A stretch of DNA of 64,000 nucleotides from Haliotis rufescens (Eukaryota): assembly GCF_023055435.1 (NCBI RefSeq), contig NW_025963890.1, forward strand, positions 25,048,001 to 25,112,000. Reading direction: 5' to 3'. A program made the position numbers and the translations under genes. The notes beneath the pieces were generated by a model. The model was not told the origin of the DNA, ran no database searches, and was given only the letters and a program-made list of their open reading frames with translations. Below are positions 31,561 through 58,200 of this stretch, piece by piece. The stretch's first letter is position 1. Every line of letters starts with the position of its first letter.

Positions 31561-32164
31561 CATGGTGTAAGCATGTTTTTGTTTTTGTAAGCATTAAATA
31601 CATAAAATTGCAGCGAAAATGTTCCGACCCTGTAGTGAAAAGTTCCAGTTCTCGGGACAAATGTTTGTGTGTGTTTATGAGCGACGTTTCTGTATATTGT
31701 TAATGTGCAACATGAAAAAACAGGGAAAGTAAGACATACAATCGCAACATGAAACGAATCCCGATTGTTCATTAAAGATTTTGATCTGAAATCTGAAAAC
31801 ATGTAATTATGACAGAAACTGTTAGAATGCAGAGCCCAAAACGCAACTGAAGTACTGCTGCAAGAATTCCAAGAAATGACTGTGTTGGTGTCAAAAAATT
31901 AAACAAACAGACAGTCGCTAGTAAATACTACGGCTTTCAGGATGAAGTATCCTGAAGACTTAATAGAAAATGAGAAAATGTGATTTTTGTTTACCATGGA
32001 ATATGTATAAAAACATTTTTTTAAATAAAAATGTGTTTTATTTCAAATATGTTAATGGAAATATCATCAAATAGGAACTGACACACATAGAGCATTTGCA
32101 AGTATTTATTCCATGCTAAAAAGTCAGGTATCCTTTCTCTCCCCCCCTCTCCCCTCCGAAAAAA

Positions 32165-34990
32165 ACAGACGGAATGGCTAGACAGTGTAGTTGATAAAAC
32201 TGGACATGGCGAGTACAGGCGGGACAACAGACGGAATGGCGAGACAGTGTAGTTGATAAGACTGGACATGGTGAGTACAGGCGGGACAACAGACGGAATG
32301 GCTAGACTGTGTAGCTGATAAGACTGGACATGGTGAGTACAGGCGGGACAACAGCCGGAATGGCTAGACAGTGTAAGTGATAAAACTGGACATGGTGAGT
32401 ACAGGCGGGACAACAGCCGGAATGGCTAGACAGTGTAGGTGATAAAACTGGACATGGTGAGTACAGGCGGGACAACAGTCGGAATGGCTAGACAGTGGAG
32501 CTGATAAAACTGGACATCGTGAGTACAGGCGGGACAACAGACGGAATGGCTAGACAGTGTAGGTGATAAAACTGGACATGGTGAGTACAGGCGGGACAAA
32601 AGACGGAATGGCGAGACAGTGTAGGTGATAAAACTGGACATGGTGAGTACAGGCGGGACAAAAGACGGAATGGCGAGACAGTGTAGGTGATAAAACTGGA
32701 CATGATGAGTACAGGCGGGACAAAAGACGGAATGGCGAGACAGTGTAGGTGATAAAACTGGACATGGTGAGTACAGGCGGGACAAAAGACGGAATGGCGA
32801 GACAGTGTAGGTGATAAAACTGGACATGGTGAGTACAGGCGGGACAACAGACGGAATGGCTAGACAGTGTAGTTGATAAAACTGGACATGGTGAGTACAG
32901 GCGGGACAACAGAAGGAATTGCTAGACAGTGTAGGTGATAAAACTGGACATGGTGAGTACAGGCGGGACAACAGACGGAATGGCTAGACAGTGTAGTTGA
33001 TAAAACTGGACATGATGAGTACAGGCGGGACAACAGACGGAATGGCTAGACAGTGTAGTTGATAAAACTGGTAACATGGTGAGTACAGGCGGGACAAAAG
33101 AAGGAATTGCTAGACAGTGTAGGTGATAAAACTGGACATGGTGAGTACAGGCGGGACAAAACACGGAATGGCGAGACAGTGGAGGTGATAAAACTGGACA
33201 TGGTGAGTACAGGCGGGACAAAAGAATGAATTGCTAGACTGTGTAGCTGATAAAACTGGACATGGTGAGTACAGGCGGGACAAAAGAAGGAATTGCTAGA
33301 CTGTGTAGCTGATAAGACTGGACATGGTGAGTACAGGCGGGACAACAGACGGAATGGCTAGACAGTGTTGGTGATAAAACTGGACATGGTGAGTACAGGC
33401 GGGACAGCAGACGGAATGGCTAGACAGTGTAGCTGATAAGACTGGACATGGTGAGTACAGGCGGGACAACAGCCGGAATGGCTAGACAGTGTAGGTGATA
33501 AAACTGGACATGGTGAGTACAGGCGGGACAACAGCCGGAATGGCTAGACAGTGTAGTTGATAAAACTGGACATGGTGAGTACAGGCGGGACAACAGCCGG
33601 AATGGCTAGACAGTGTAGGTGATAAAACTGGACATGGTGAGTACAGGCGGGACAACAGCCGGAATGGCTAGACAGTGTAGGTGATAAAACTGGACATGGT
33701 GAGTACAGGCGGGACAACAGAAGGAATGGCGAGACAGTGTAGGTGATAAAACTGGACATGGTGAGTACAGGCGGGACAAAAGACGGAATGGCTAGACAGT
33801 GTAGTTGATAAAACTGGACATGGTGAGTACAGGCGGGACAACAGCCGGAATGGCTAGACAGTGTAGGTGATAAAACTGGACATGGTGAGTACAGGCGGGA
33901 CAACAGAAGGAATGGCTAGACAGTGTAGCTGATAAGACTGGTCATGGTGAGTACGGGCGGGACAACAGACGGAATGGCTAGACAGTGTAGTTGATAAAAC
34001 TTGACATGGTGAGTACAGGCGGGACAACAGCCGGAATGGCTAGACAGTGTAGTTGATAAAACTGGACATGGTGAGTACAGGCGGGACAAAAGAAGGAATG
34101 GCTAGACTGTGTAGGTGATAAAACTGGACATGGTGAGTACAGGCGGGACAAAAGAAGGAATTGCTAGACAGTGTAGTTGATAAAACTGGACATGGTGAGT
34201 ACAGGCGGGACAAAAGACGGAATGGCGAGACAGTGGAGGTGATAAAACTGGACATGGTGAGTACAGGCGGGACAAAAGAAGGAATTGCTAGACTGTGTAG
34301 CTGATAAGACTGGACATCGTGAGTACAGGCGGGACAACAGACGGAATGGCTAGACAGTGTAGGTGATAAAACTGGACATGGTGAGTACAGGCGGGACAAC
34401 AGACGGAATGGCTAGACTGTGTAGGTGATAAGACTGGACATGGTGAGTACAGGCGGGACAACAGCCGGAATGGCTAGACAGTGTAAGTGATAAAACTGGA
34501 CATGGTGAGTACAGGCGGGACAACAGACGGAATGGCTAGACAGTGTAGGTGATAAAACTGGACATGGTGAGTACAGGCGGGACAACAGTCGGAATGGCTA
34601 GACAGTGGAGCTGATAAAACTGGACATCGTGAGTACAGGCGGGACAACAGACGGAATGGCTAGACAGTGTAGGTGATAAAACTGGACATGGTGAGTACAG
34701 GCGGGACAAAAGACGGAATGGCGAGACAGTGTAGGTGATAAAACTGGACATGGTGAGTACAGGCGGGACAAAAGACGGAATGGCGAGACAGTGTAGGTGA
34801 TAAAACTGGACATGGTGAGTACTGGCGGGACAACAGACGGAATGGCTAGACAGTGTAGGTAATAAAACATGGTAGTGGGTGATAAAACTGGACATGGTGA
34901 GTACGGGCGGGACAACAGACGGAATGGCTAGACAGTGTAGGTGATAAAACTGGACATGGTGAGTACAGGCGGGACAACAGAAGGAATGGC
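32165..34990 (+). repeat. 62-bp satellite (exon-2 end plus donor unit), about 45 copies
   Basis: GCGGGACAACAGACGGAATGGCTAGACAGTGTAGGTGATAAAACTGGACATGGTGAGTACAG; same unit as 52724-54940. Confidence 0.97.
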
Positions 34991-35140
34991 TTCAATTTTT
35001 TCTTAGGAGGTTCGAAACTCTTAACATGTTCTGAAAATGTTTGGTTCCTTCTTTCAGAGAAACAAAATGTATTTCTTGAACCGCTGACTGAAAATGTTTT
35101 CTTTCTAAAACATGTCAGGCTACATTTCTTATTCACTCAG

Positions 35141-35263
35141 GTCGCCCTAAATGTCTGCTGACTCTGGTCAACCCAATCGGGGGACAGAAGAAAGGAGCCA
35201 AGCTGTACGAGACTATTGTAGAACCACTGTTTGCACTGGCGGGGATTGACGCGAAGCGTATAA
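35141..35263 (+). CDS. CERK-like A, exon equivalent to exon 3
   Basis: GRPKCLLTLVNPIGGQKKGAKLYETIVEPLFALAGIDAKRI; AG/GT. Confidence 0.8.
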
Positions 35264-35604
35264 GTAGGTGTTACTTAGTGAAAGTAAGGTCAACTGTTGG
35301 TCCATGGACATGTTAGTCGAGTAAGTCAACGTAGTACCCGTGCAGTATGCAGGTAGTCAAGCAGTTGCAAGCGGACAATGGGAGAACACGCTGGGAATGC
35401 CTGCCTCAGCGGTGATAGTACAACGGAATACAGGAAGGGAACACGTTTGGGCATTGGTACAAATTAGTGTTTAAAATTGGAATATGTTTCAATAAGTGTC
35501 ATGGAGTGTTTAGAGTAGGCGTTAATGATACGTTTCCCTCATTAACGATGAACATCTGAAATACATGAACAAGATATAAACATGAAATACTGTTTACATT
35601 TCAG

Positions 35605-45442: not shown

Positions 45443-47841
45443 AAAATTCGTGCACTTTGTGGTAAAAGCATGAAATTTGGCATCAATATACATAATACCA
45501 ATACGGCTAAATTTAGATATAGTGCCATCGTTGACTTGACCTCATGCGACCTTGGCGGCTATTCTTTGCAACTAAAATAGCTGGAGCCATAATATTGGTG
45601 TGTAAATAAATGTGTTTTATCTCCAAGTAAGTTGAAAACCTCGTTGAGTGTGTTAACCCTTGATAATTGGAAATATTCCTAATAATATGGCATCAACGCG
45701 TATGGCGGGCGACTCTCCTATCGGTCACTGAAGAAGTATAACCCATCCAAGATAAGCATATTGGGAGTGTTTGTTAAATTGTCTCCGCTGTTAAGGGTTA
45801 AAAATACCTAATACTCATATCTCAAGACGAAAAAGTTTTCAATTGCAGTTTATTGGTTACACATACATATACCAGCAACATCCATCACTCTTGCACAGTG
45901 CAGTACAGCTTAATGCTGCTTTCACGCACTTGCAGTTTGCTCACAACCTTTTGTGCAGCCACATCGCAGTAGTTCTCTGCACACTGTGCTGGCCTGTGGG
46001 AGGCTGCTCCAAATGACTTCCCATGTTCCTCTATCAGTTCTTGTCCAACCCCATCCTTCTGGTCGTGGTATGTCAACCACTGGTCTAAGAACCTGGCTCC
46101 AAAAATGCCCAGCCTGGTAAGCTACTCTTCTCACGTGGTGTAGAAGGGCATATTGTGTTGGTGAAATGTTGTTCACATCTCTTCCTTTGTGTGCAAAGAG
46201 ATCCACTCTTGCCTCGTTCACATGACACTTCAAGCTGGTTTTGTCATTTGTAGAACAAAAGCTCTCTCTACAGTGTCCATAGACCTATCGACATCTGTCA
46301 GTTGTGGCTGGTTCATTAGTGCAGCAAACTCATTAGTGACCTCATGGTACATATTCCATATGCCCCACGCTTCTTTCTTTCCCCTTTCGGCGATGCAGGA
46401 GACAGTGTCAAATCCTGTCAAGGCAAAGTGACATGGGAAGTGCGAGACTTTTGTCTGGTCTAATTGCTAAAGCGATGTCATGTGCCGGAATCAGTCAGAA
46501 GCGTTTGCCTGTTCCAAAGGCCATCCACAAAGCAGTAAGTAGCATTCTTAGCTGTACAGCAAGCACAACAGCATCACTGTCCACTGTACGGATGAGAATC
46601 TTGTACTGTTTAGCTGCATCAGCGACATGGACCATAATTCGGCTGTCTGCTTCCTCGTGTGTGCAAGGCGCTAGTCCTTCTGTTGTTCTAGGCAGTTGAC
46701 AGACAACATCCTCGTGCAGTGTGCTAATGACTTGCTTGTCGGTTTGGATAGTGTTGGCTTCTGTGCTGAGAAACACGAATGGTTCTTTCTTATTGTCAGC
46801 AAGTTTCAAGTAGTCTCCCAAAAAGTATCCCAGTTTTTTTAGATTGGATTGTTTGGCTGTACTCGACGGCGCCCTCCTTTACCTCTCTTAGCTCGTGTTT
46901 GTTCTTTCAAAGAGTTTGACCTATATTCATCCCAAACAATATCTATTCGTTGGCACTTGGTATGGTAGAAAGACATCCTGAGAATACTCTTTGAAAGTCT
47001 TTGTTGAACCTGGCTTCAACATGTGAACTATTGCTGGCCCATCTATCACTACAACCTTTGTACCTGTATTTATCTCATCTTGCTTCAGCAAAACATCTTC
47101 CAGGCATTAAACTATGTCAGATTTAGTGCCAAGCCTGAGTTTGCCCCTGTCTGAAAGGGATGGTGGGCATACCTGATCCTTTTATTATTATCATTATTAT
47201 TATTATTATTATTTATTGGGTCGTCTATAGATTTTGACCTTCCTACAAGACGCTCTTTCACAAATGCAGTGTATTGTTCACATCCAAGCCTTTCAAGCAT
47301 GTCAGGTGTCTTCTGTGCATCATCAAATGAAACTTCAAAGTCATTGATGAGACGTGCCATCTCAGGTCCACTGACCATCCATCTCTGGAGAGTAGCTCGA
47401 TTCTCAGTCACCCCAACAGCTCCACCATCATCTTTTACCACAGCATGATTCTGCTCATGTGCTTGATCAATAGCAATTCTTGAGTAAGCATGAGTTGTCT
47501 TGTTCACTTTGAACTGTCCATTCAAGAACTGAGCATAGATATTTGGGTGCAGCTTTTACGGAGGTGGACTAATATCCATCGTGCATAGTGGTAGTGATCA
47601 AGAGAGAAAACAAGCTTGGTCAGAGAATCGACATACAGATGGAAGTTGCCAGTACGAATAGATCGCACAAACACAAGCATGGTGAGTTGTAGTTCAAGGA
47701 CCATGAACCAGAACTTGAACGTCGGATGACACTCCTGTTGCACAATACACCAGACTTCAAGGCACTGTATCTTCATTCTAATATGCTGAGATGGTTAAAA
47801 TGTGTGCTAAAGTTCGTGCTTTTACCACAATGTGCAAGATT
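45443..47841 (-). mobile_element. Degenerate unclassified DNA transposon (HEEAD / DxD / C-terminal CXC protein)
   Basis: Fragmented ORFs (HYARW, DQAHEQ, DNKKE, CTHEEADSR, DSDAVV, TGFDTVS, ELLRCGCTKGC) between about 40-bp imperfect inverted repeats (TGCACTTTGTGGTAAAAGCATGAA / TTCGTGCTTTTACCACAATGTGCA). Confidence 0.7.
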
Positions 47842-48064: not shown

Positions 48065-49079
48065 GCATCCGTTAACATCACCAGTGTGGGGTAAATGTAC
48101 TCGCCCATCTTACAGAGTGTGGTTGGCAAGTATATGTACAAGTAGGAGGCAATGTTTGTTACAGTAGAGTAGATATTGTTATGCTGGAGTAGAGAAGCCT
48201 GTTATGTACACACAAGGCACGAATGCAGTTCACCATGGAGGAAGAAACCAATCGACAGCCCACCTTCCTTGATGTACTCGTACAGAAAGATAGTAACGAC
48301 AAACTCCAGACCACTGTGTATCGGAAACCTACCCACACAGATCAATACATACACTATGCCTCCAACCATCCACCTCAAGTCAAGAAAGGAATTGTTTCAA
48401 CCCCAGCAAGACGAGCTCAAAACATCTGTTCCACGAAGCAACATCTAACTACTGAACTAAACCAGCTCAAACAAGTATTTACACAGTATAACCTCTATCC
48501 TGAGCAACTAGTACAACAGACGATACAGAACATCACCAAGAAATCTCGGAAATCCCCCTGTCAACAGTCTGCGCCCTTTGTAATCAGCCTCCCTTACTTT
48601 GGAACAGTAAGCCACAAAATCCAGAGACTCTTAAAGAAACAGGCCAACATTGATGTAATTTTCAAGAGAGGTCATACCATTCAGAACAATTAAAGCCACA
48701 TGGAAACCATCATCGAGCCACAAGCTAGAACCACCAGGAGCAGTGTACCACATTCCATGCAACTGTGGACAAGCTTACATAGGAGAAACATCTAGGCCCC
48801 TCAAAACCCGAATAAAAGAACATCAAAGTTCAGTCTCCAAATATGACTCTAAATCAGCTCTACCAGACCACATCCGTGACAACCCAAGCCACAGCATTCA
48901 GTGGGAGAGAGTCACAGCCCTCAACACCAACCTCAAAGACAAAAATATATATACCGTGTAATATACAATGACAGAAATATATAATATGTGTAGCATACAC
49001 TGAACGAATATATAAATGTAATGAATAAGTTCAATGAGAGAGTTGACATGATCCACACATATACTACATTGTATATGTA

Positions 49080-50374
49080 CGAGGGCTGGCTGAAAAGTTC
49101 TAAGCCTAAGTGGGATATCTCAATCGGATTGAAACAAACTTTTACCACCAACAAGTACAATCATTTAATGAATCATAGACATAAGAACTGAAACTGTAGT
49201 GTTATTATTGTCTTTGTACCAGACCATCTTGTGAACCTACCCATTGAAATCACCAGAAATGGACAAAACTGGCTATAGGGCAGTCATCAAGTACCTGCAA
49301 CTGAAAGGGCTAACTCCAACACAGATACATGCTGACATGGTCTCCACTTTAGGGGATGATGCCCCTTCCTTTTCCACTGTAAAGAAGTGGGCTGCGGAAT
49401 TCAAGCGTGACAGAGAGAGCCTTGACGATGACCCGCGTCCAGGAAGGCCTTCAACAGCAACCATTCTGGAAAACATTACCCGGGTGCATGACATGGTGAT
49501 GGCTGATCAACGATTGACCACTCGACATATTGCCAGTGGTGTGGGCATCCCTCGTGAGAGGGTTGAGCACATTATCACCAACGAGTTGGGAATGACAAAA
49601 GTTTCTGCAAGATGGGTGCCAAAACTCTTGACAGCGGATCAGAAACGTGTCAGATTCCTGACGTCCCGTGACAATTTATGCCGTTTTGAAGCAGATCCCG
49701 ATGATTTTTTGGCCCGATTTGTAACCATGGATGAGACCTGGATTCATCACTTTCAACCAGAAACCAAAATTCAGTCTTAACAATGGAAGCATCCGGAATC
49801 ACCAGCCCCCCAAAAAGCCAGGTCGGTTCCTTCTGCTGGAAAGGTGATGGCTTCAGTCTTTTTAGTTTCCAGGGGTATTCTGCTGATTGACTATCTTGAA
49901 AAAGGCCAGACTATCAATGGAAGATATTATGCTGACCTACTGAGACAGTTGCGTGAAGCTATCAAAGCTAAGCGACGGGGAATGCTCACTAAAGGAGTCC
50001 TGTTCCACCAAGACAATGCTCCTGTTCACAAATCGGTGGTTGCCATGTCAGCGATCCATGATTGTGGCTTCGAACTCATTGACCATCCCCCTTATTCACC
50101 CGATTTGGCCCCGTCAGACTTCCACCTGTTTCCCAAAATGAAAAAGGAACTAGCCGGTCACCATTTTCCTAGTAATGATGACGTCATTTCCGCTGTGAAT
50201 GACTTTTCTAAGGACGGTTGAAGAAAATTTCTTCTTGACCGGCATCCAGGCCTTGCAGCATCGCAGGCAAAAGTGTGTAAATCTGGAAGGGGACTATGTG
50301 GATAAATAAATGAAAACCATCGTCTTGGTACGGGTCTTTCACAGTTAGGCTTAGAACTTTTCAGCCAGCCCTCG
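49080..50374 (+). mobile_element. Mariner (DD34D) transposon, full length, inactivated
   Basis: TIR CGAGGGCTGGCTGAAAAGTTCTAAGCCTAA, TA at both ends; WVPKLL, DETW, QDNA, YSPDLAPSD; in-frame TAA at 49778. Confidence 0.95.
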
Positions 50375-50608
50375 TACATACCCCCGGCGTTCCATCAACT
50401 CATCAAATGCCCCAATCAGCCATAATTCCGTTGTTTATATTACTGGCTTCATCCTTTGTTTATGTCACTGACTTCACCGATGATTGTCATCACTACCCTT
50501 GTGTACATAACAGGCTTTTCTACTCCAGTATAACAATATCTACTCTTCAGTATAAACATTGCCTCCTACTTGTATATATACTTGCCAACCACACTCTGTA
50601 TATCACTT

Positions 50609-50646
50609 GCTTGATAACGATGTTAGAACCTACACCGAAACGTCGC
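50609..50646 (+). ncRNA. Putative minimal hammerhead ribozyme motif in the Penelope 3' repeat
   Basis: TTGATAA - stem II - GAAA-CG-TC core with U3-A8 covariation; stems I and II are imperfect. Confidence 0.45.
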
Positions 50647-51411
50647 TCTTAATTGTAATAAAGAAGTTGTTTATCCATAAATTCTTATCCTTACTTAGTA
50701 CTCCAACTTCTAAATGCCTATCAAAGAAGTCTCTGTGATGATCCAGGTCAGTTTCAGAAGGCATAACGCAATGCCCTTGTGTAGTATGGGAAATATCAAG
50801 TCTAAGGGGAACTTATCTGTTATTTATCGAGGCGTATAGAGAGATACTTTTGATTAATTACTCTATCTCTATCTTTAAATTAACGATGAAGCAAAAACTA
50901 CAACCCCGATTGTGACTCAAATGAAGTCATCTCAGTCAGGTGCGCTCCATTCAACATGCGCCAATAACTATCTTCAGTCGCGAAACCATCTTTACAGTGC
51001 GTTTGTTGTCACCTGGTATTAAAACTTCATACCTACATTGTTAATTGATAAGAAGTTCCCTTAATTTAGTATATCATCATGTGCTGATTTCAGTCTTTGT
51101 GTTGGTTACTTTTCTTTTGCTCGTCAGTTAATGTTTTTGCAATAAACTATATTTTTTCTATATATATTTATATATGTTTATGTTGTACTTTGTTTTCCAA
51201 GTAAGGTTAAATGGTGCTCAATGGGCATTTCAAATCGCAGTCAACAACTGGTTCAGTTATATCACAGCGGGACAAAAGGAGATTATTTACTGAATAAGTG
51301 TTACGGCCATACTGTCTTTCATGCCCATGTCTCTACGTGAAAGATTATGGCTTTGCTCGAGAAATACTTTCACCCCACTTTCTACCGACAGGTAGCCATT
51401 AACTGTAACCA

Positions 51412-52269: not shown

Positions 52270-55200
52270 GTCAGACAATCTTTCTCTTTTCGGGGAATTG
52301 TAATTTTGTTATCAAACTGCAGGTTTCTCAACAGCCGGGTCAGTGTGACACCTAGCGCCCCGCCTTGTTATTGTCGGCAAGATAAAACCTGTGTACCAGA
52401 TATAACATAACAATGGACCCTCAATTGGTACATTAATTCCTATATTCGCAAAAAGTAAACATCACCTGAAATTAGCAGGTAAAATACATGTGTTTTTTAT
52501 TATCTAAGCTTTGCAAACAGAGAAACTTTTATGGTACTTTTTATATTTTAGACAGTCGTGTCGAATGGGATGACGTGATCACTGCCTACCTGGGCGGGGT
52601 GTCCCGGGGGCCGGGCGTGAAGGCGAGGGTGGGGGTGGCGCCACAGGAGGACAGATTCACCCTACACTACATCGAACATCAGGAGAACAACATCCTCAGA
52701 CACAAACACGTTACGTTTATAGGACATGCGGGACAACAGAAGGAATGGCTAGACTGTGTAGCTGATAAAACTGGACAGGGTGAGTACAGACGTGACAACA
52801 GACGGAATGGCTAGACTGTGTAGCTGATAAGACTGGACATGGTGAGTACAGGCGGGACAACAGAAGGAATGGCTAGACAGTGTAGGTGATAAGACTGGAC
52901 ATGGTGAATACAGGCGGGACAACAGACGGAATGGCTAGACAGTGTAGGTGATAAGACTGGACATGGTGAGCACAGGCGGGACAACAGACGGAATGGCTAG
53001 ACAGTGTAGGTGATAAAACTGGTGACATGGTGAGTACAGGCGGGACAACAGAAGGAATGGCTAGACAGTGTAGCTGATAAGACTGGTCATGGTGAGTACA
53101 GGCGGGACAATTGACGGAATGGCTAGACAGTGTAGGTGATACAACTGGTGACATGGTGAGTACAGGCGGGACAACAGAAGGAATGGCTAGACAGTGTAGT
53201 TGATAAAACTGGTGACATGGTGAGTACAGGCGGGACAACAGAAGGAATGGCTAGACAGTGTAGGTGATAAAACTGGTGAAATGGTGAGTACAGGCGGGAC
53301 AACAGACGGAATGGCTAGACAGTGTAGCTGATAAGACTGGTCATGGTGAGTACAGGCGGGACAACAGACGGAATGGTTAGACTGTGCAGCTGATAAAACT
53401 CGACATGGTAAGTACAGGCGGGACAACAGACGGAATGGTTAGACTGTGCAGCTGATAAAACTCGACATGGTGAGTACAGGCGGGACAACAGACGGAATGG
53501 CTAGACAGTGTAGTTGATAAGACTGGACATGGTGAGTACAGGCGGGACAACTGACGGAATGGCTAGACAGTGGAGCTGATAAGACTGGACATGGCGAGTA
53601 CAGGCGGGACAACAGACGGAATGGCGAGACAGTGTAGTTGATAAGACTGGACATGGTGAGTACAGGCGGGACAACAGACGGAATGGCTAGACAGTGTAGC
53701 TGATAAGACTGGACATGGCGAGTACAGGCGGGACAACAGACGGAATGGCTAGACAGTGTAGTTGATAAAACTGGTGACATGGTGAGTACAGGCGGGACAA
53801 CAGACGGAATGGCTAGACAGTGTAGCTGATAAGACTGGACATGGCGAGTACAGGCGGGACAACAGACGGAATGGCGAGACAGTGTAGCTGATAAAACTGG
53901 ACATGGTGAGTACAGGCGGGACAACAGACGGAATGGCGAGACAGTGTAGCTGATAAGACTGGACATGGTGAGTACAGGCGGGACAACTGACGGAATGGCT
54001 AGACAGTGGAGCTGATAAAACTGCTGACATGGCGAGTACAGGCGGGATAACAGAAGGAATGGCTAAACAGTGTGATTGATAAGACTGGACATGGTGAGTA
54101 CAGGTGTGACAACAGAAGGAATGGCTAGACAGTGTGGTTGATAAGACTGGACATGGTGAGTACAGGCGGGACAACAGACGGAATGGCTAGACAGTCTAGT
54201 TGATAAAACTGGTAACATGGTGAGTACAGGCTGGACAAATGACGGAATGGCTAGACAGTGTAGCTGATAAGGCTGGACATGGTGAGTGCAGGCGGGACAA
54301 CAGACGGAATGGCTAGACAGTGTAGGTGATAAGACTGGACATGGTGAGTACAGGCGGGACAACAGACGGAATGGCTAGACAGTGAAGGTGATAAAACTGG
54401 TGACATGGTGAGTAAAGGTGGGACAACAGAAGGAATGGCTAGACAGTGTGTCTGATGAAACTGGACATGGTGAGTACAGGCGGGACAACAGCCGGAATGG
54501 CTAGACAGTGTAGGTGATAAAACTGGACATGGTGAGTACAGGCGGGACAACAGACGGAATGGCTAGACAGTGTAGGTGATAAAACTGGTGACATGGTGGG
54601 TAAAGGTGGGACAACAGAAGGAATGGCTAGACAGTGTGTCTGATAAAACTGGACATGGTGAGTACGGGCGGGACAACAGCCGGAATGGCTAGACAGTGTA
54701 GGTGATAAAACTGGACATGGTGAGTACAGGCGGGACAACAGACGGAATGGCTAGACAGTGTAGGTGATAAAACTGGTGACATGGTGAGTAAAGGTGGGAC
54801 AACAGAAGGAATGGCGAGACAGTGTCTCTGATAAAACTGGACATGGTGAGTACGGGCGGGACAACAGCCGGAATGGCTAGACAGTGTAGGTGATAAAACT
54901 GGACATGGTGAGTACAGGCGGGACAACAGAAGGAATGGCTTCAATTTGTTCTGAGGAGGTTGGAAACTCTTGACATGTAGTGAAAATGTTTGGTTCCTAC
55001 TTTCAGAGAAACAAATTGTATTTCTTGAACCGCTGACTTTTTATTTTTCTAAAACATGTCAGGCTACATTTCTTATTCTCTCAGGTCGCCCTAAATGTCT
55101 GCTGACTCTGGTCAACCCAATCGGGGGACAGAAGAAAGGAGCCAAGCTGTACGAGACTATTGTAGAACCACTGTTTGCACTGGCGGGGATTGACGCGAAG

Positions 55201-58200
55201 CTTATAAGTAGGTGTTACTTTAATTATGGTATATATGTGAATCACATATATCGTATTGATATTGTTATTGATCAAATATTGATTTTTTTTTTACCACATG
55301 CATGTTGATCATATACACATGGTATATGTGTGGATTATGTCAACTCTATATGGTAACCATGTGCATCATGTCAAGTGAGTGAGTGTGTGAGTTGGGTTTT
55401 ACGCCGCCTTTAGCAATACATCATGTCATGTAGTGAGTGAGTGAGTGAGTGAGTTGGGCTTAACGCTGTTTTTAACAGTATTCCAGTTATATCGCGGCGT
55501 GTCAGCTTAATATGGGAGGAAAGCCCGAAGTGATGCAGGTCTCAGACGTTTACCACTTCGGTGAAACCCACGAGCACGGGTATGGTGCTGACAAACCTAG
55601 AAACATAATCGGGGCGAACCGGGATGCCCAAGGGACGCAACTCTGCACAGCGAATCGCGGCGCCTTAGACGACTGGGCCACCCGTGCCACCTCATATCAA
55701 GTACGAGGGCTGGCTGAAAAGTTCTAAGCCTAACTGTGAAAGACCCGTATCAAGTCGATGGTTTTTATTTATTTATCCACATAGTCCCCTTCCAGGTTTA
55801 CACACTTTTGCCTGCGATGCTGCAAGGCCTGGATGCCGGTCAAGAAGAAATTTTCTTCAACCGTCCTTAGAAAAGTCATTCACAGCGGAAATGACGTCAT
55901 CATTACTAGGAAAATGGCGACCGGCTAGTTCCTTTTTCATTTTGGGAAACAGGTGGAAGTCTGACGGGGCCAAATCGGGTGAATAAGGGGGATGGTCAAT
56001 GAGTTCGAAGCCACAATCATGGATCGCTGACATGGCAACCACCGATTTGTGAACAGGAGCATTGTCTTGGTGGAACAGGACTCCTTTAGTGAGCATTCCG
56101 GATGCTTCCATTGTTAAGACTGAATTTTGGTTTCTGGTTGAAAGTGATGAATCCAGGTCTCATCCATGGTTACAAATCGGGCCAAAAAATCATCGGGATC
56201 TGCTTCAAAACGATATATATTGTCACGGGACGTCAGGAATCTGACACGTTTCTGATCCGCTGTCAAGAGCTTTGGCACCCATCTTGCAGAAACTTTTGTC
56301 ATTCCCAACTCGTTGGTGATAATGTGCTCAACCCTCTCACGAGAGATGCCCACACCACTGGCAATATGTCGAGTGGTCAATCGTTGATCAGCCATCACCA
56401 TGTCATGCACCCGGGTAATGTTTTCCAGAATGGTTGCTGTTGAAGGCCTTCCTGGACGCGGGTCATCGTCAAGGCTCTCTCTGTCACGCTTGAATTCCGC
56501 AGCCCACTTCTTTACAGTGGAAAAGGAAGGGGCATCATCCCCTAAAGTGGAGACCATGTCAGCATGTATCTGTGTTGGAGTTAGCCCTTTCAGTTGCATG
56601 TTCTTGATGACTGCCCTATAGCCAGTTTCGTCCATTTCTGGTGATTTCAATGGGTAGGTTCACAAGATGGTCTGGTACAAAGACAATAATAACACTACAG
56701 TTTCAGTTCTTATGTCTATGATTCATTAAATGGTTGTACTTGTTGGTGGTAAAAGTTTGTTTCAATCCGATTGATATATCCCACTTAGGCTTAGAACTTT
56801 TCAGCCAGCCCTCGTACATATACAATGTAGTATATGTGTGGATCATGTCAACTCTCTCATTGAATTTATTCATTACATTTATATATTCGTTCAGTGTATG
56901 CTACACATAGTATATATTTCTATCATTGTATATTACACGGTATATATATTTTTTGAATTACCTACACATGGTGTATATGTCAATCATCTGTTCATACTGA
57001 TACATATCAGTACACACATTCAGGGTAGTCTGTAATTTCAAATGTCCCCTTTCTTCTCTTCAAGTACAAAGTATGAGTAGTGAACAGGTATCGAAAGTTG
57101 CAACTTGGAACCCGAAATGACCAACTGATTTTGTTAATAAAATGTTTGTCGATATACAGCTTATCAAAAACATGTTATATTAAATGCAGTCACAGAAAGA
57201 TTCCGTCATGCAGAAGAAATAGCCAAAACGTATGACTTCTCCACTGTGGACGGGTAAGTTTGACATGGGTTTGGATTTAAACTGGTGGGAAGAATCCAAG
57301 TAAACTATGTTTGTTCTCTGCTTTTCTTTGGACGAGTTGATATGTGACTTACTTATTGCAAAATAATGCAAAATAGGCGTGATAATGTCGATAACCAAAT
57401 AAGGAACGTCATGTTACATGCATACTGCTTCTGTGCCTATCACTGTTCCATCTCTCCACACTGTTACTGCTTCAGTGCCTACGACTGTTCCATCTCTCCA
57501 CACTGTTACTGCTTCAGTGCCTACGACTGTTCCATCTCTCCACACTGTTACTGCCTCTGTGCCTACGACTGTTCCATCTCTCCACACTGTTACTGCCTCT
57601 GTGCCTACGACTGTTCCATCTCTCCACACAGTTACTGCTTCTGTGCCTACGACTGGTCCATCTCTCCACACTGTTACTGCTTCTGTGCCTACGACTGTTC
57701 CAGCTCTCCACACAGTTACTGCTTCTGTGCCTCCGACTGGTCCATCTCTCCACACTGTAACTGCTTCTGTGCCTACGACTGTTCTATCTCTCCACACTGT
57801 TACTGCCACTGTGCCTACGACTGTTCCATCTCTCCACACTGTAACTGCTTCAGTGCCTACGACTGTTCCATCTCTCCACACAGTTACTGCTTCTATGTCT
57901 GCGACTGTTCCATCTCTCCACACTGTTACTGCTTCTTTGTCTGTGATTGTTCCATCTCTCCACACTGTTACTGCTTCTATGTCTGTGATTGTTCCATCTC
58001 TTCACACTGTTACTGCTTCTATGTCTGTGATTGTTCCATCTCTTCACACTGTTACTGCTTCTATGTCTGTGACTGTTCCTTCTCTTCACACTGTTACTGC
58101 TTCTATGTCTGTGATTGTTCCATCTCTCCACACTGTTACTGCTTCTATGTCTGTGATTGTTCCATCTCTCCACACTGTTGCTGTTTCTATGTCTGTGATT

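What the first reader, a model, noticed from the sequence alone, without database searches (positions are those of the whole stretch)
48941..50380. One-ended mariner transposition that captured flanking host DNA
Seen: the two inverted mariner copies share a premature stop and also about 140 bp outside the 5' TIR (48941-49079 is the reverse complement of 56815-56953), while their 3' flanks differ. At 49 kb the 3' TIR joins a TA in the Penelope frame (TAC ATA CCC, YIP). The captured flank joins the GIY-YIG ORF at AAAAAT, and the intervening Penelope codons appear to be missing. Related AT-rich sequence at 55320-55350 suggests the flank is native to CERK-B intron 3. Inference: aberrant local transposition or repair copying moved the element plus intron DNA about 6 kb, which standard cut-and-paste does not produce.
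Basis: partly seen in the sequence, partly recalled or inferred. Interest (0 to 1): 0.7.

Follow-up and report, generated by a model that had tools for sequence, protein, structure and literature searches.

The report
Dead mariner recopied with its flank
A dead jumping gene plus 139 bases of neighbouring intron was copied, back to front, into a retro-element five kilobases away, likely by the cell's own break repair rather than by a normal jump; it is a real but one-off accident of a known kind.

Summary
Copy A (48941-50374) is an inverted duplicate of mariner B plus 139 bp of B's 5' flank, 5.3 kb away, inserted in a Penelope copy that lost 75 bp. The flank was found only at A and B. Of 162 other loci none carries it or shows this structure. 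Contigs of two runs, one of a differently labelled organism, cross the left junction, so an assembly artefact is unlikely. One correction: AAAAAT is donor DNA, not microhomology. The title's mechanism is not established. The right junction is exactly at TIR+TA, which suggests transposase. But the donor was already dead, no late ordinary hop was seen among 152 copies, and the target shares 6 nt with B's 5' boundary (8 of 253 family ends do). Best reading, 0.45: break-repair copying, with the inverted repeats guiding a template switch. Rivals: old hop then one-sided repair 0.25; one-ended insertion 0.22. Known kind; low interest. The scan noted a similar neighbour copy in another genome (unchecked).

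The parts
48193..48940 (+). Penelope-like retroelement, left part (RT end and GIY-YIG frame, already broken by a stop/frameshift near 48693); ends at the left junction
   Evidence: ORFs; GIY-YIG E 2.9e-4, below cut-off; 40 other copies at 90-94% in G000, matches ending at 48940
48940..48941 (.). Left junction: blunt join of Penelope to donor flank; 75 bp (25 codons) of Penelope missing
   Evidence: crossed by contigs X2 record 23 (48894-48970, 0 differences) and X16 record 10 (48889-48970, 1 difference)
48941..49079 (+). Captured 139 bp of B's 5' flank, including B's own TA
   Evidence: 97.8% identical to rc(56815-56953); only two places in G000
49080..50374 (+). Mariner copy A, 1295 bp, 30-bp TIRs, D,D34D transposase broken by a stop (49778) and a +1 frameshift (about 50210) shared with B
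   Evidence: HTH_48 and Transposase_1 over cut-off; Mos1/SETMAR best PDB hits; spacing 34
50375..50380 (+). Right junction: target TA exactly at the TIR end; TACATA equals B's 5' boundary read outward (6 nt) but B's 3' boundary for only 3 nt
   Evidence: 36-bp stem in the fold of A
50377..50690 (+). Penelope-like element, right part (YIPP... end of frame and 3' tail)
55310..55347 (+). Degenerate intron repeat related to the captured flank, on the other side of B
   Evidence: 90% over 40 columns
55704..56814 (-). Mariner copy B, the donor: ordinary TA/TA insertion in the intron between exons at 55086-55208 and 57191-57253 of a DAG-kinase-family (CERK-like) gene; 184-bp internal deletion absent from A
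   Evidence: flank-TIR contig present in all four organisms laid
56815..56953 (-). Native source of the captured flank; the intron continues beyond 56953

Best explanation
A 1,434-bp inverted copy of mariner B plus 139 bp of its flank replaces 75 bp of a Penelope element 5.3 kb away, and it was likely written in by host break repair without transposase. Shown: direction B to A, the 75-bp loss, no target duplication around the copied unit, a dead donor, and copying well after the family's burst as judged by A-B distance. Inferred: a break in the Penelope copy was filled by synthesis on the neighbouring locus. The broken right end (TATGTA on the bottom strand) would prime at the same 6 nt at B's 5' boundary, copy the 30-bp TIR, switch to the identical TIR at the other end, run through the element and 139 bp of flank, and be end-joined bluntly. 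The mirror route gives the same product: copying inward from the flank, snap-back of the new strand's TIRs, then annealing at TACATA. The TIR step is what would explain the exact end; it is hypothesised, not shown. B lost 184 bp afterwards (inferred, since A keeps them).
For: Timing: A-B 1.34% while 152 copies lie 1.48-6.81% (median 2.72%) from the column majority; of 11,394 pairs, those under 2.6% are both-flank segmental duplicates (L095/096/097, L015/018, L161/183), one conversion mosaic (L126/L131) and A/B; none is an evenly young pair with unrelated flanks. The A/B diagnostic 23-mer (up to 1 mismatch) occurs only at A and B. Stop and frameshift are shared, so the donor was dead. A-B differences show no clear patchiness (longest identical run 294 bp, p 0.15; flank vs 5' vs 3' p 0.71), as one copying event predicts. 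The 6-nt match to a B boundary is seen at 8 of 253 TA-bounded family ends and within 1 of 98 copies. The target TA fits the family's preference poorly: 9 of 70 sites score as low or lower. 75-bp loss and blunt left join. PMC8277862 (passages): single-copy TIR-associated duplications in animals are cis-biased, often carry microhomology and mostly arose while the elements were inactive. Snap-back synthesis creating microhomology is shown in PMC5728401 (passages).
Against: The right breakpoint is exactly at the terminus plus TA, the signature of transposase; PMC4423477 (passages) treats such a coincidence as highly unlikely by chance. With B's own 3' boundary the match is only TAC; the 6-nt match needs an extra TIR switch and was noticed after the fact. 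There are 16 TATGTA sites within 10 kb, so priming at the boundary is itself about a 1 in 16 event. The snap-back precedent acts within about 30 nt of a break, not over 1.3 kb. Conversion between nearby copies happens in this genome (L126/L131, p 4e-5) and could have reset the A-B clock. 7 of 152 copies keep a frame of 346-352 aa, so transposase in trans is not excluded. The census is a partial sample (194 exact TIR ends; 1,344 first-look candidates). The last 71 bp of the element hold 3 differences against 12 in 1,040 (p 0.065), which leans to the two-step rival. The site score against background is only -0.6 bits, and 69% of 4,510 random TA sites score as low or lower, so site fit is weak evidence.
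Confidence: 0.45

Rival explanations
1. Two steps: an ordinary hop put a mariner into the Penelope TA during the family's burst; later a break at or in its 5' part was repaired from inverted neighbour B by one-sided invasion, overwriting nearly all of A, running 139 bp into B's flank and end-joining with loss of 75 bp.
For: Explains the exact TIR+TA end without late transposase. The Penelope copy is old enough (3.2-4.7% from majority). L126/L131, inverted and 42 kb apart with four unrelated TA flanks, show a conversion tract of about 950 bp. Slight excess of differences in the last 71 bp (p 0.065). One-sided invasion is recalled from general knowledge; only listed papers holding the term.
Against: Needs two rare events. 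Shared derived sites run from element position 65 to 1224 of 1295, so the tract must cover almost the whole copy, with no patchiness (p 0.15). The 6-nt match is left to chance (8 of 253). No other separate pair closer than 42 kb was seen among 162 loci; the 8-kb pair on C556 is one interrupted copy.
Confidence: 0.25
2. One-ended or bimolecular transposition (the title): transposase supplied in trans joined B's 3' end to the Penelope TA while the 5' end stayed uncut; replication ran through the element and 139 bp of flank, and the product was end-joined with loss of 75 bp.
For: Exact terminus at a native TA, inverted orientation, short range, dead but TIR-intact donor. 7 of 152 copies keep long frames; L133 has all four motifs tested intact. 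Precedents: single-ended piggyBac events and a cited Mos1 case (PMC3952818, passages); Hermes remobilised with 71-270 bp of flank and Mos1 with flanking plasmid in Aedes (PMC3030943, passages); Ac composite insertions (PMC4270019).
Against: No late ordinary hop among 152 copies, though these should outnumber aberrant ones (inference); an event at the burst would need later full-length, even conversion. Mariner has a topological filter against single-ended reactions (PMC5224488, abstract start in listing); SB gave no single-ended products in PMC3952818. Ac composite insertions keep two ends and a TSD; this has one end and a deletion. I could not find the cited Mos1 single-ended result in PMC2642840 with my terms (I picked that paper from recall and it may not be the cited one).
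Confidence: 0.22
3. End bypass or a larger composite element: transposase cut at a cryptic end 139 bp outside the TIR, or the flank is part of a bigger mobile unit.
For: End bypass is described for P elements (PMC8277862, passages).
Against: No TIR-like sequence at the outer end (8 of 31 in register, best 13 of 31 nearby); no TA or duplication at the outer end; 75-bp deletion; flank only at A and B; 0 of 162 other loci carry it.
Confidence: 0.03
4. Assembly artefact (haplotype or repeat mis-join).
For: The junction was not seen in five of seven runs laid (X1, X5, X11, X13, X15). The bridging contigs reach only 30 letters past the junction, one short of the tool's 31-letter rule. The right junction was not shown bridged in the listed pieces.
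Against: X2 and X16 hold the Penelope-flank join with 47 and 52 letters on the left, at depths 45.6 and 37 (X16's unique sequence: 34.7), with the flank contig at about 1.5 times that. X16 is another organism label and differs at 13 of 694 letters next door. A and B differ at 18 sites and by 184 bp.
Confidence: 0.02

Closest known systems
Transposition-independent gap-filling duplications at TIR elements in animals (Pack-TIR study, PMC8277862)
   Same: Single copy, cis template nearby, microhomology, likely made while the family was quiet.
   Different: There host DNA lands inside the element; here the element and its outer flank are the filler and land inside another repeat. That pipeline discards cases whose parent is linked to an element.
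Single-ended, bimolecular and non-canonical transposition of TIR elements (piggyBac, Hermes, Mos1; PMC3952818, PMC3030943)
   Same: One exact end at the preferred target; 71-270 bp of flank carried in Hermes.
   Different: Those were seen with active transposase in the laboratory; here no contemporaneous activity was found, and the target has a 75-bp deletion.
Ac/Ds alternative transposition with re-replication (composite insertions; PMC4270019, bioRxiv 10.1101/2020.01.07.897926)
   Same: Donor kept; element plus flank copied to a linked site; internal junction made by end joining.
   Different: Composite insertions have two element ends and a target-site duplication; this has one end, no duplication and a deletion.
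Tc1/mariner family, mariner D,D34D group (Mos1, Hsmar1/SETMAR)
   Same: About 1.3 kb, 30-bp TIRs, TA targets, HTH_48 plus Transposase_1, D,D34D.
   Different: A and B are dead; subfamily not determined.

Membership tests
mariner (D,D34D) | Short TIRs and TA target duplication across the family | tested here: met
   30-bp perfect TIR; 100 of 119 complete copies TA/TA
mariner (D,D34D) | HTH plus DDD domain with 34-residue spacing | tested here: met
Canonical cut-and-paste insertion (copy A as it stands) | Both TIRs joined to an undeleted target with a duplicated target TA | tested here: not met
   The 5' TA is B's; 139 bp donor flank and 75 bp target loss
One-ended/bimolecular transposition | One junction exactly at the terminus at the preferred target | tested here: met
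   50374|TA; site score in the lower tail, 9 of 70
One-ended/bimolecular transposition | Active transposase at the time of the event | tested here: inconclusive
   No late hop among 152 copies; 7 long frames; sample partial; conversion can reset dates
Ac-type composite insertion | Two element ends flanked by a TSD | tested here: not met
   One end, deletion instead of TSD (definition)
End bypass / transduction | Cryptic TIR and TSD at the outer end | tested here: not met
   8 of 31 matches; no TA
Pack-TIR | Host DNA between the TIRs | tested here: not met
   Captured DNA lies outside the 5' TIR
Break-repair templated insertion | Nearby template kept, deletion at target, no TSD | tested here: met
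Break-repair templated insertion | Microhomology at junctions | tested here: inconclusive
   Right: 3 nt with B's 3' boundary, 6 nt with its 5' boundary (8 of 253); left: none in register, TTCAA 4 nt out of register, chance 3.8%
Break-repair templated insertion | Independence from transposase shown by experiment | not testable with these tools
   Historical single event
Ceramide kinase (host gene name) | CERK_C domain (PF19280) | tested here: inconclusive
   No hit in this window, 3 hits elsewhere in G000; exon-wise search can miss short exons; DAGK_cat E 6e-4. Likeness of the exons to CERK is recalled, from no call.

The most novel reading that the evidence does not exclude
Terminal inverted repeats can steer host repair synthesis to start or stop exactly at a transposon end, so a dead DNA transposon can be copied with an exact TIR+TA junction and no transposase. 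Such 'pseudo-transpositions' would mimic one-ended jumps and could be recognised by microhomology to the opposite end's flank, as here (TACATA).
Probability: 0.2. Interest if true: 0.6.

Novelty: new member of a known kind. Interest (0 to 1): 0.27.

Why it matters
As it stands it is one well-resolved natural example of an element-plus-flank local duplication, rare in its family (A/B only, against 162 other loci) and with no sign of effect on a host exon: it lands in an already broken retro-element upstream of the second kinase paralogue. It would matter if the TIR-guided repair reading is right, because exact ends at TA are routinely taken as proof of transposase action and used to date activity. 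The L126/L131 mosaic is a practical warning that near-identity between neighbouring copies can come from conversion, not from recent jumping.

Tried and rejected
Assembly artefact, composite element and end bypass: rejected as above. AAAAAT microhomology: rejected. The upstream paralogue's intron as an empty-site control: no useful homology to the flank (local scores 28-32). L126/L131 first looked like a late ordinary hop (1.27%, four unrelated TA flanks); rejected because 12 private differences lie in positions 1-330 and 4 in 331-1295 (p 4e-5). Other one-flank matches: L007/L111 and L122/L132 share no derived element site and their flanks are repeats; L091/L092 lie in a multi-kb duplicated block; L093/L094 are two 5'-truncated copies 52 kb apart sharing the 3' flank, read as a segmental duplicate but not followed beyond 300 bp. 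Presence/absence polymorphism: not claimed. X1, X5, X11, X13 and X15 showed no junction contig, but contigs cannot show absence, and X1 and X5 carry A's three flank alleles on contigs with about 518 upstream letters that do not fit the stretch; their length fits B's intron, and I read them as graph-cleaning chimeras (inference; letters not seen). The X15 joint 48940-50382 (side 22) may be any Penelope copy. TTCAA beside the left junction is not retained in the product and has a 3.8% chance rate; treated as coincidence. A TIR-mediated inversion would leave B's 3' flank, not its 5' flank, at the left junction; rejected by reasoning. Paper searches (open-licence PMC and bioRxiv only) listed no title or abstract start describing a TIR-guided, transposase-free copy with an exact end; most listed papers were not read, subscription papers are not searched and no supplements were opened, so this is weak. 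No protein homologue, structure or complex jobs were run; the mariner subfamily is therefore open.

Full report
Observation. The self-comparison and pairwise alignment show an inverted repeat between 48941-50377 and 55701-56953. Copy A is a 1295-bp mariner at 49080-50374; copy B is 55704-56814 on the minus strand and lacks 184 bp that A keeps. They differ at 15 sites in the element and 3 in the 139 bp outside the 5' TIR. Beyond the 3' TIR they share only TAC. The element is a mariner: 30-bp TIRs, HTH_48 and Transposase_1, D,D34D, Mos1 and SETMAR as nearest solved structures.

Direction. At B the flank runs on into intron and has a related stretch on the other side of the element (55310-55347); B has TA at both ends, and its flank-TIR junction is in contigs of all four organisms laid. 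At A the flank interrupts a Penelope-like element. All 24 other Penelope copies examined continue TT(C/T)AA after 48940, and 14 of 24 have exactly 75 bp plus TA before the sequence that resumes at 50377. So B is the donor, A is the copy, the target lost 75 bp, the TA at 50375 is the target's own, and AAAAAT is donor DNA at a blunt join.

The two refutations. The 134-bp flank query found two places in the 1.33-Gb genome, A and B (the tool warns that common words are skipped). I fetched 162 other loci: 38 from the BLAST list and 124 from exact TIR matches; two of them are halves of one copy. 100 of 119 complete copies have TA at both ends, none carries the flank, and every other in-register flank match is a both-flank duplicate, a duplicated block or a shared repeat, with L093/L094 only partly followed. 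For the artefact question, contigs of seven runs were laid. X2 and X16 cross the Penelope-flank join (47+30 and 52+30 letters, one short of the tool's 31-letter rule on the right side; that this is the overlap expected at a branch is my inference). X16 has another organism label and differs at 13 of 694 letters in the neighbouring unique DNA. Five runs showed no such contig, which is not evidence of absence. The right junction was not shown bridged.

Timing. A and B share 14-15 derived sites spread from element position 65 to 1224, including the stop and a frameshift, so the donor was dead when copied. A 23-mer with these alleles is found only at A and B. The family is star-like: 152 copies lie 1.48-6.81% from the majority, and no pair among 11,394 is evenly young with unrelated flanks. 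The one candidate, L126/L131, is a conversion mosaic. That result cuts both ways: it removes the only sign of late transposition, and it shows that neighbours can be homogenised, which weakens dating by A-B distance. A-B differences are not detectably patchy (p 0.15), apart from a weak excess in the last 71 bp (p 0.065). A-B distance (18 of 1,250) does not differ from the window-X16 distance (13 of 694; p 0.46). Seven copies keep long frames, so trans-acting transposase is possible.

Junctions. The right junction is exactly at TIR+TA. Read outward, the target (TACATA CCC) matches B's 5' boundary (TACATA TAC) for 6 nt and B's 3' boundary for 3 nt; 8 of 253 TA-bounded family ends match either boundary that far. 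This was found after the fact, and 16 such hexamers lie within 10 kb. The target fits the family's AnA-TA-TnT preference poorly but not decisively. The outer end has no cryptic TIR. The fold of A shows the 36-bp stem of TIR plus TACATA; a stem is expected for any TIR element and is not evidence of mechanism.

Mechanism. Three routes give this structure. (1) Host break repair copies the neighbour, with the TIRs guiding a template switch or snap-back: fits timing, evenness, deletion and the 6-nt match, and must assume the TIR step (0.45). (2) An old ordinary hop followed by one-sided repair from B: explains the exact end, has a conversion precedent in this genome, and needs an almost full-length tract (0.25). 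(3) One-ended or bimolecular transposition plus repair: explains the exact end, and lacks evidence of transposase at that time (0.22). These odds are judgement, not computed. In all three the left junction and the flank capture are made by host repair; only the right junction is in dispute.

What is known. Papers were seen as search passages only, no whole texts or supplements: PMC4270019 and bioRxiv 10.1101/2020.01.07.897926 on Ac composite insertions, which keep two ends and a TSD; PMC8277862 on cis-biased, transposition-independent gap filling and end bypass; PMC3952818 on single-ended events, noting that true single-ended transposition is not proven and that other mechanisms give similar products; PMC3030943 on Hermes and Mos1 integrations with flank; PMC4423477 on one-sided deletions at a mariner terminus; PMC5728401 on snap-back synthesis; PMC2642840, nothing relevant found; PMC5224488, abstract start in a listing. 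One-sided invasion is recalled.

Verdict. Real, rare within its family, a new member of a known kind (local templated duplication at a TIR element). No host function is evident. Interest 0.27; the TIR-guided, transposase-free reading has probability about 0.2 and would deserve 0.6.

Noticed in passing
L126 and L131 (G000:C201:2052206-2053496 and 2009702-2010974): Two inverted mariner copies 42 kb apart with four unrelated TA flanks; about 950 bp nearly identical (4 private differences) but the 5' 330 bp diverged (12): ectopic gene conversion between copies.
   Followed up: yes
window 32164-35276 vs 52721-55220: The two DAG-kinase-family paralogues share the 62-bp intronic array, the following intron (93.7% with the exon) and one exon (99%), while later exons are 69-87% alike; the upstream paralogue shows no match to B's first two exons. 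Looks like a local copy or conversion of about 3 kb over 20 kb.
   Followed up: partly
window 52721-52780: The unit of the 62-bp array repeats the 3' end of exon 2 and its splice donor (57-nt match at 84-93% to dozens of units).
   Followed up: no
window 48111-48212 vs 50500-50600: The Penelope copy has an inverted repeat of its 3' tail at its 5' end (93% over 102 columns); similar in L034-L038.
   Followed up: partly
window 45922-47555, minus strand: Broken reading frames of an unidentified, probably mobile protein next to the Penelope copy; no Pfam hit over cut-off.
   Followed up: partly
L013, L014, L015, L018, L024, L080, L133: Seven of 152 mariner copies keep a 346-352 aa frame although 2.5-2.9% from the majority; of six tested only L133 matched all four motif patterns.
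   Followed up: partly
L203 (G000:C556:51526000-51535999): One mariner copy split by an insertion of about 8.3 kb.
   Followed up: no
window 48936-48945 and 56949-56958: TTCAA lies beside both left breakpoints, 4 nt out of register and not kept in the product; chance 3.8%. Unexplained.
   Followed up: yes
whole window: Many long tandem arrays (units of 20-172 bp, up to about 3 kb); 46 rows.
   Followed up: no
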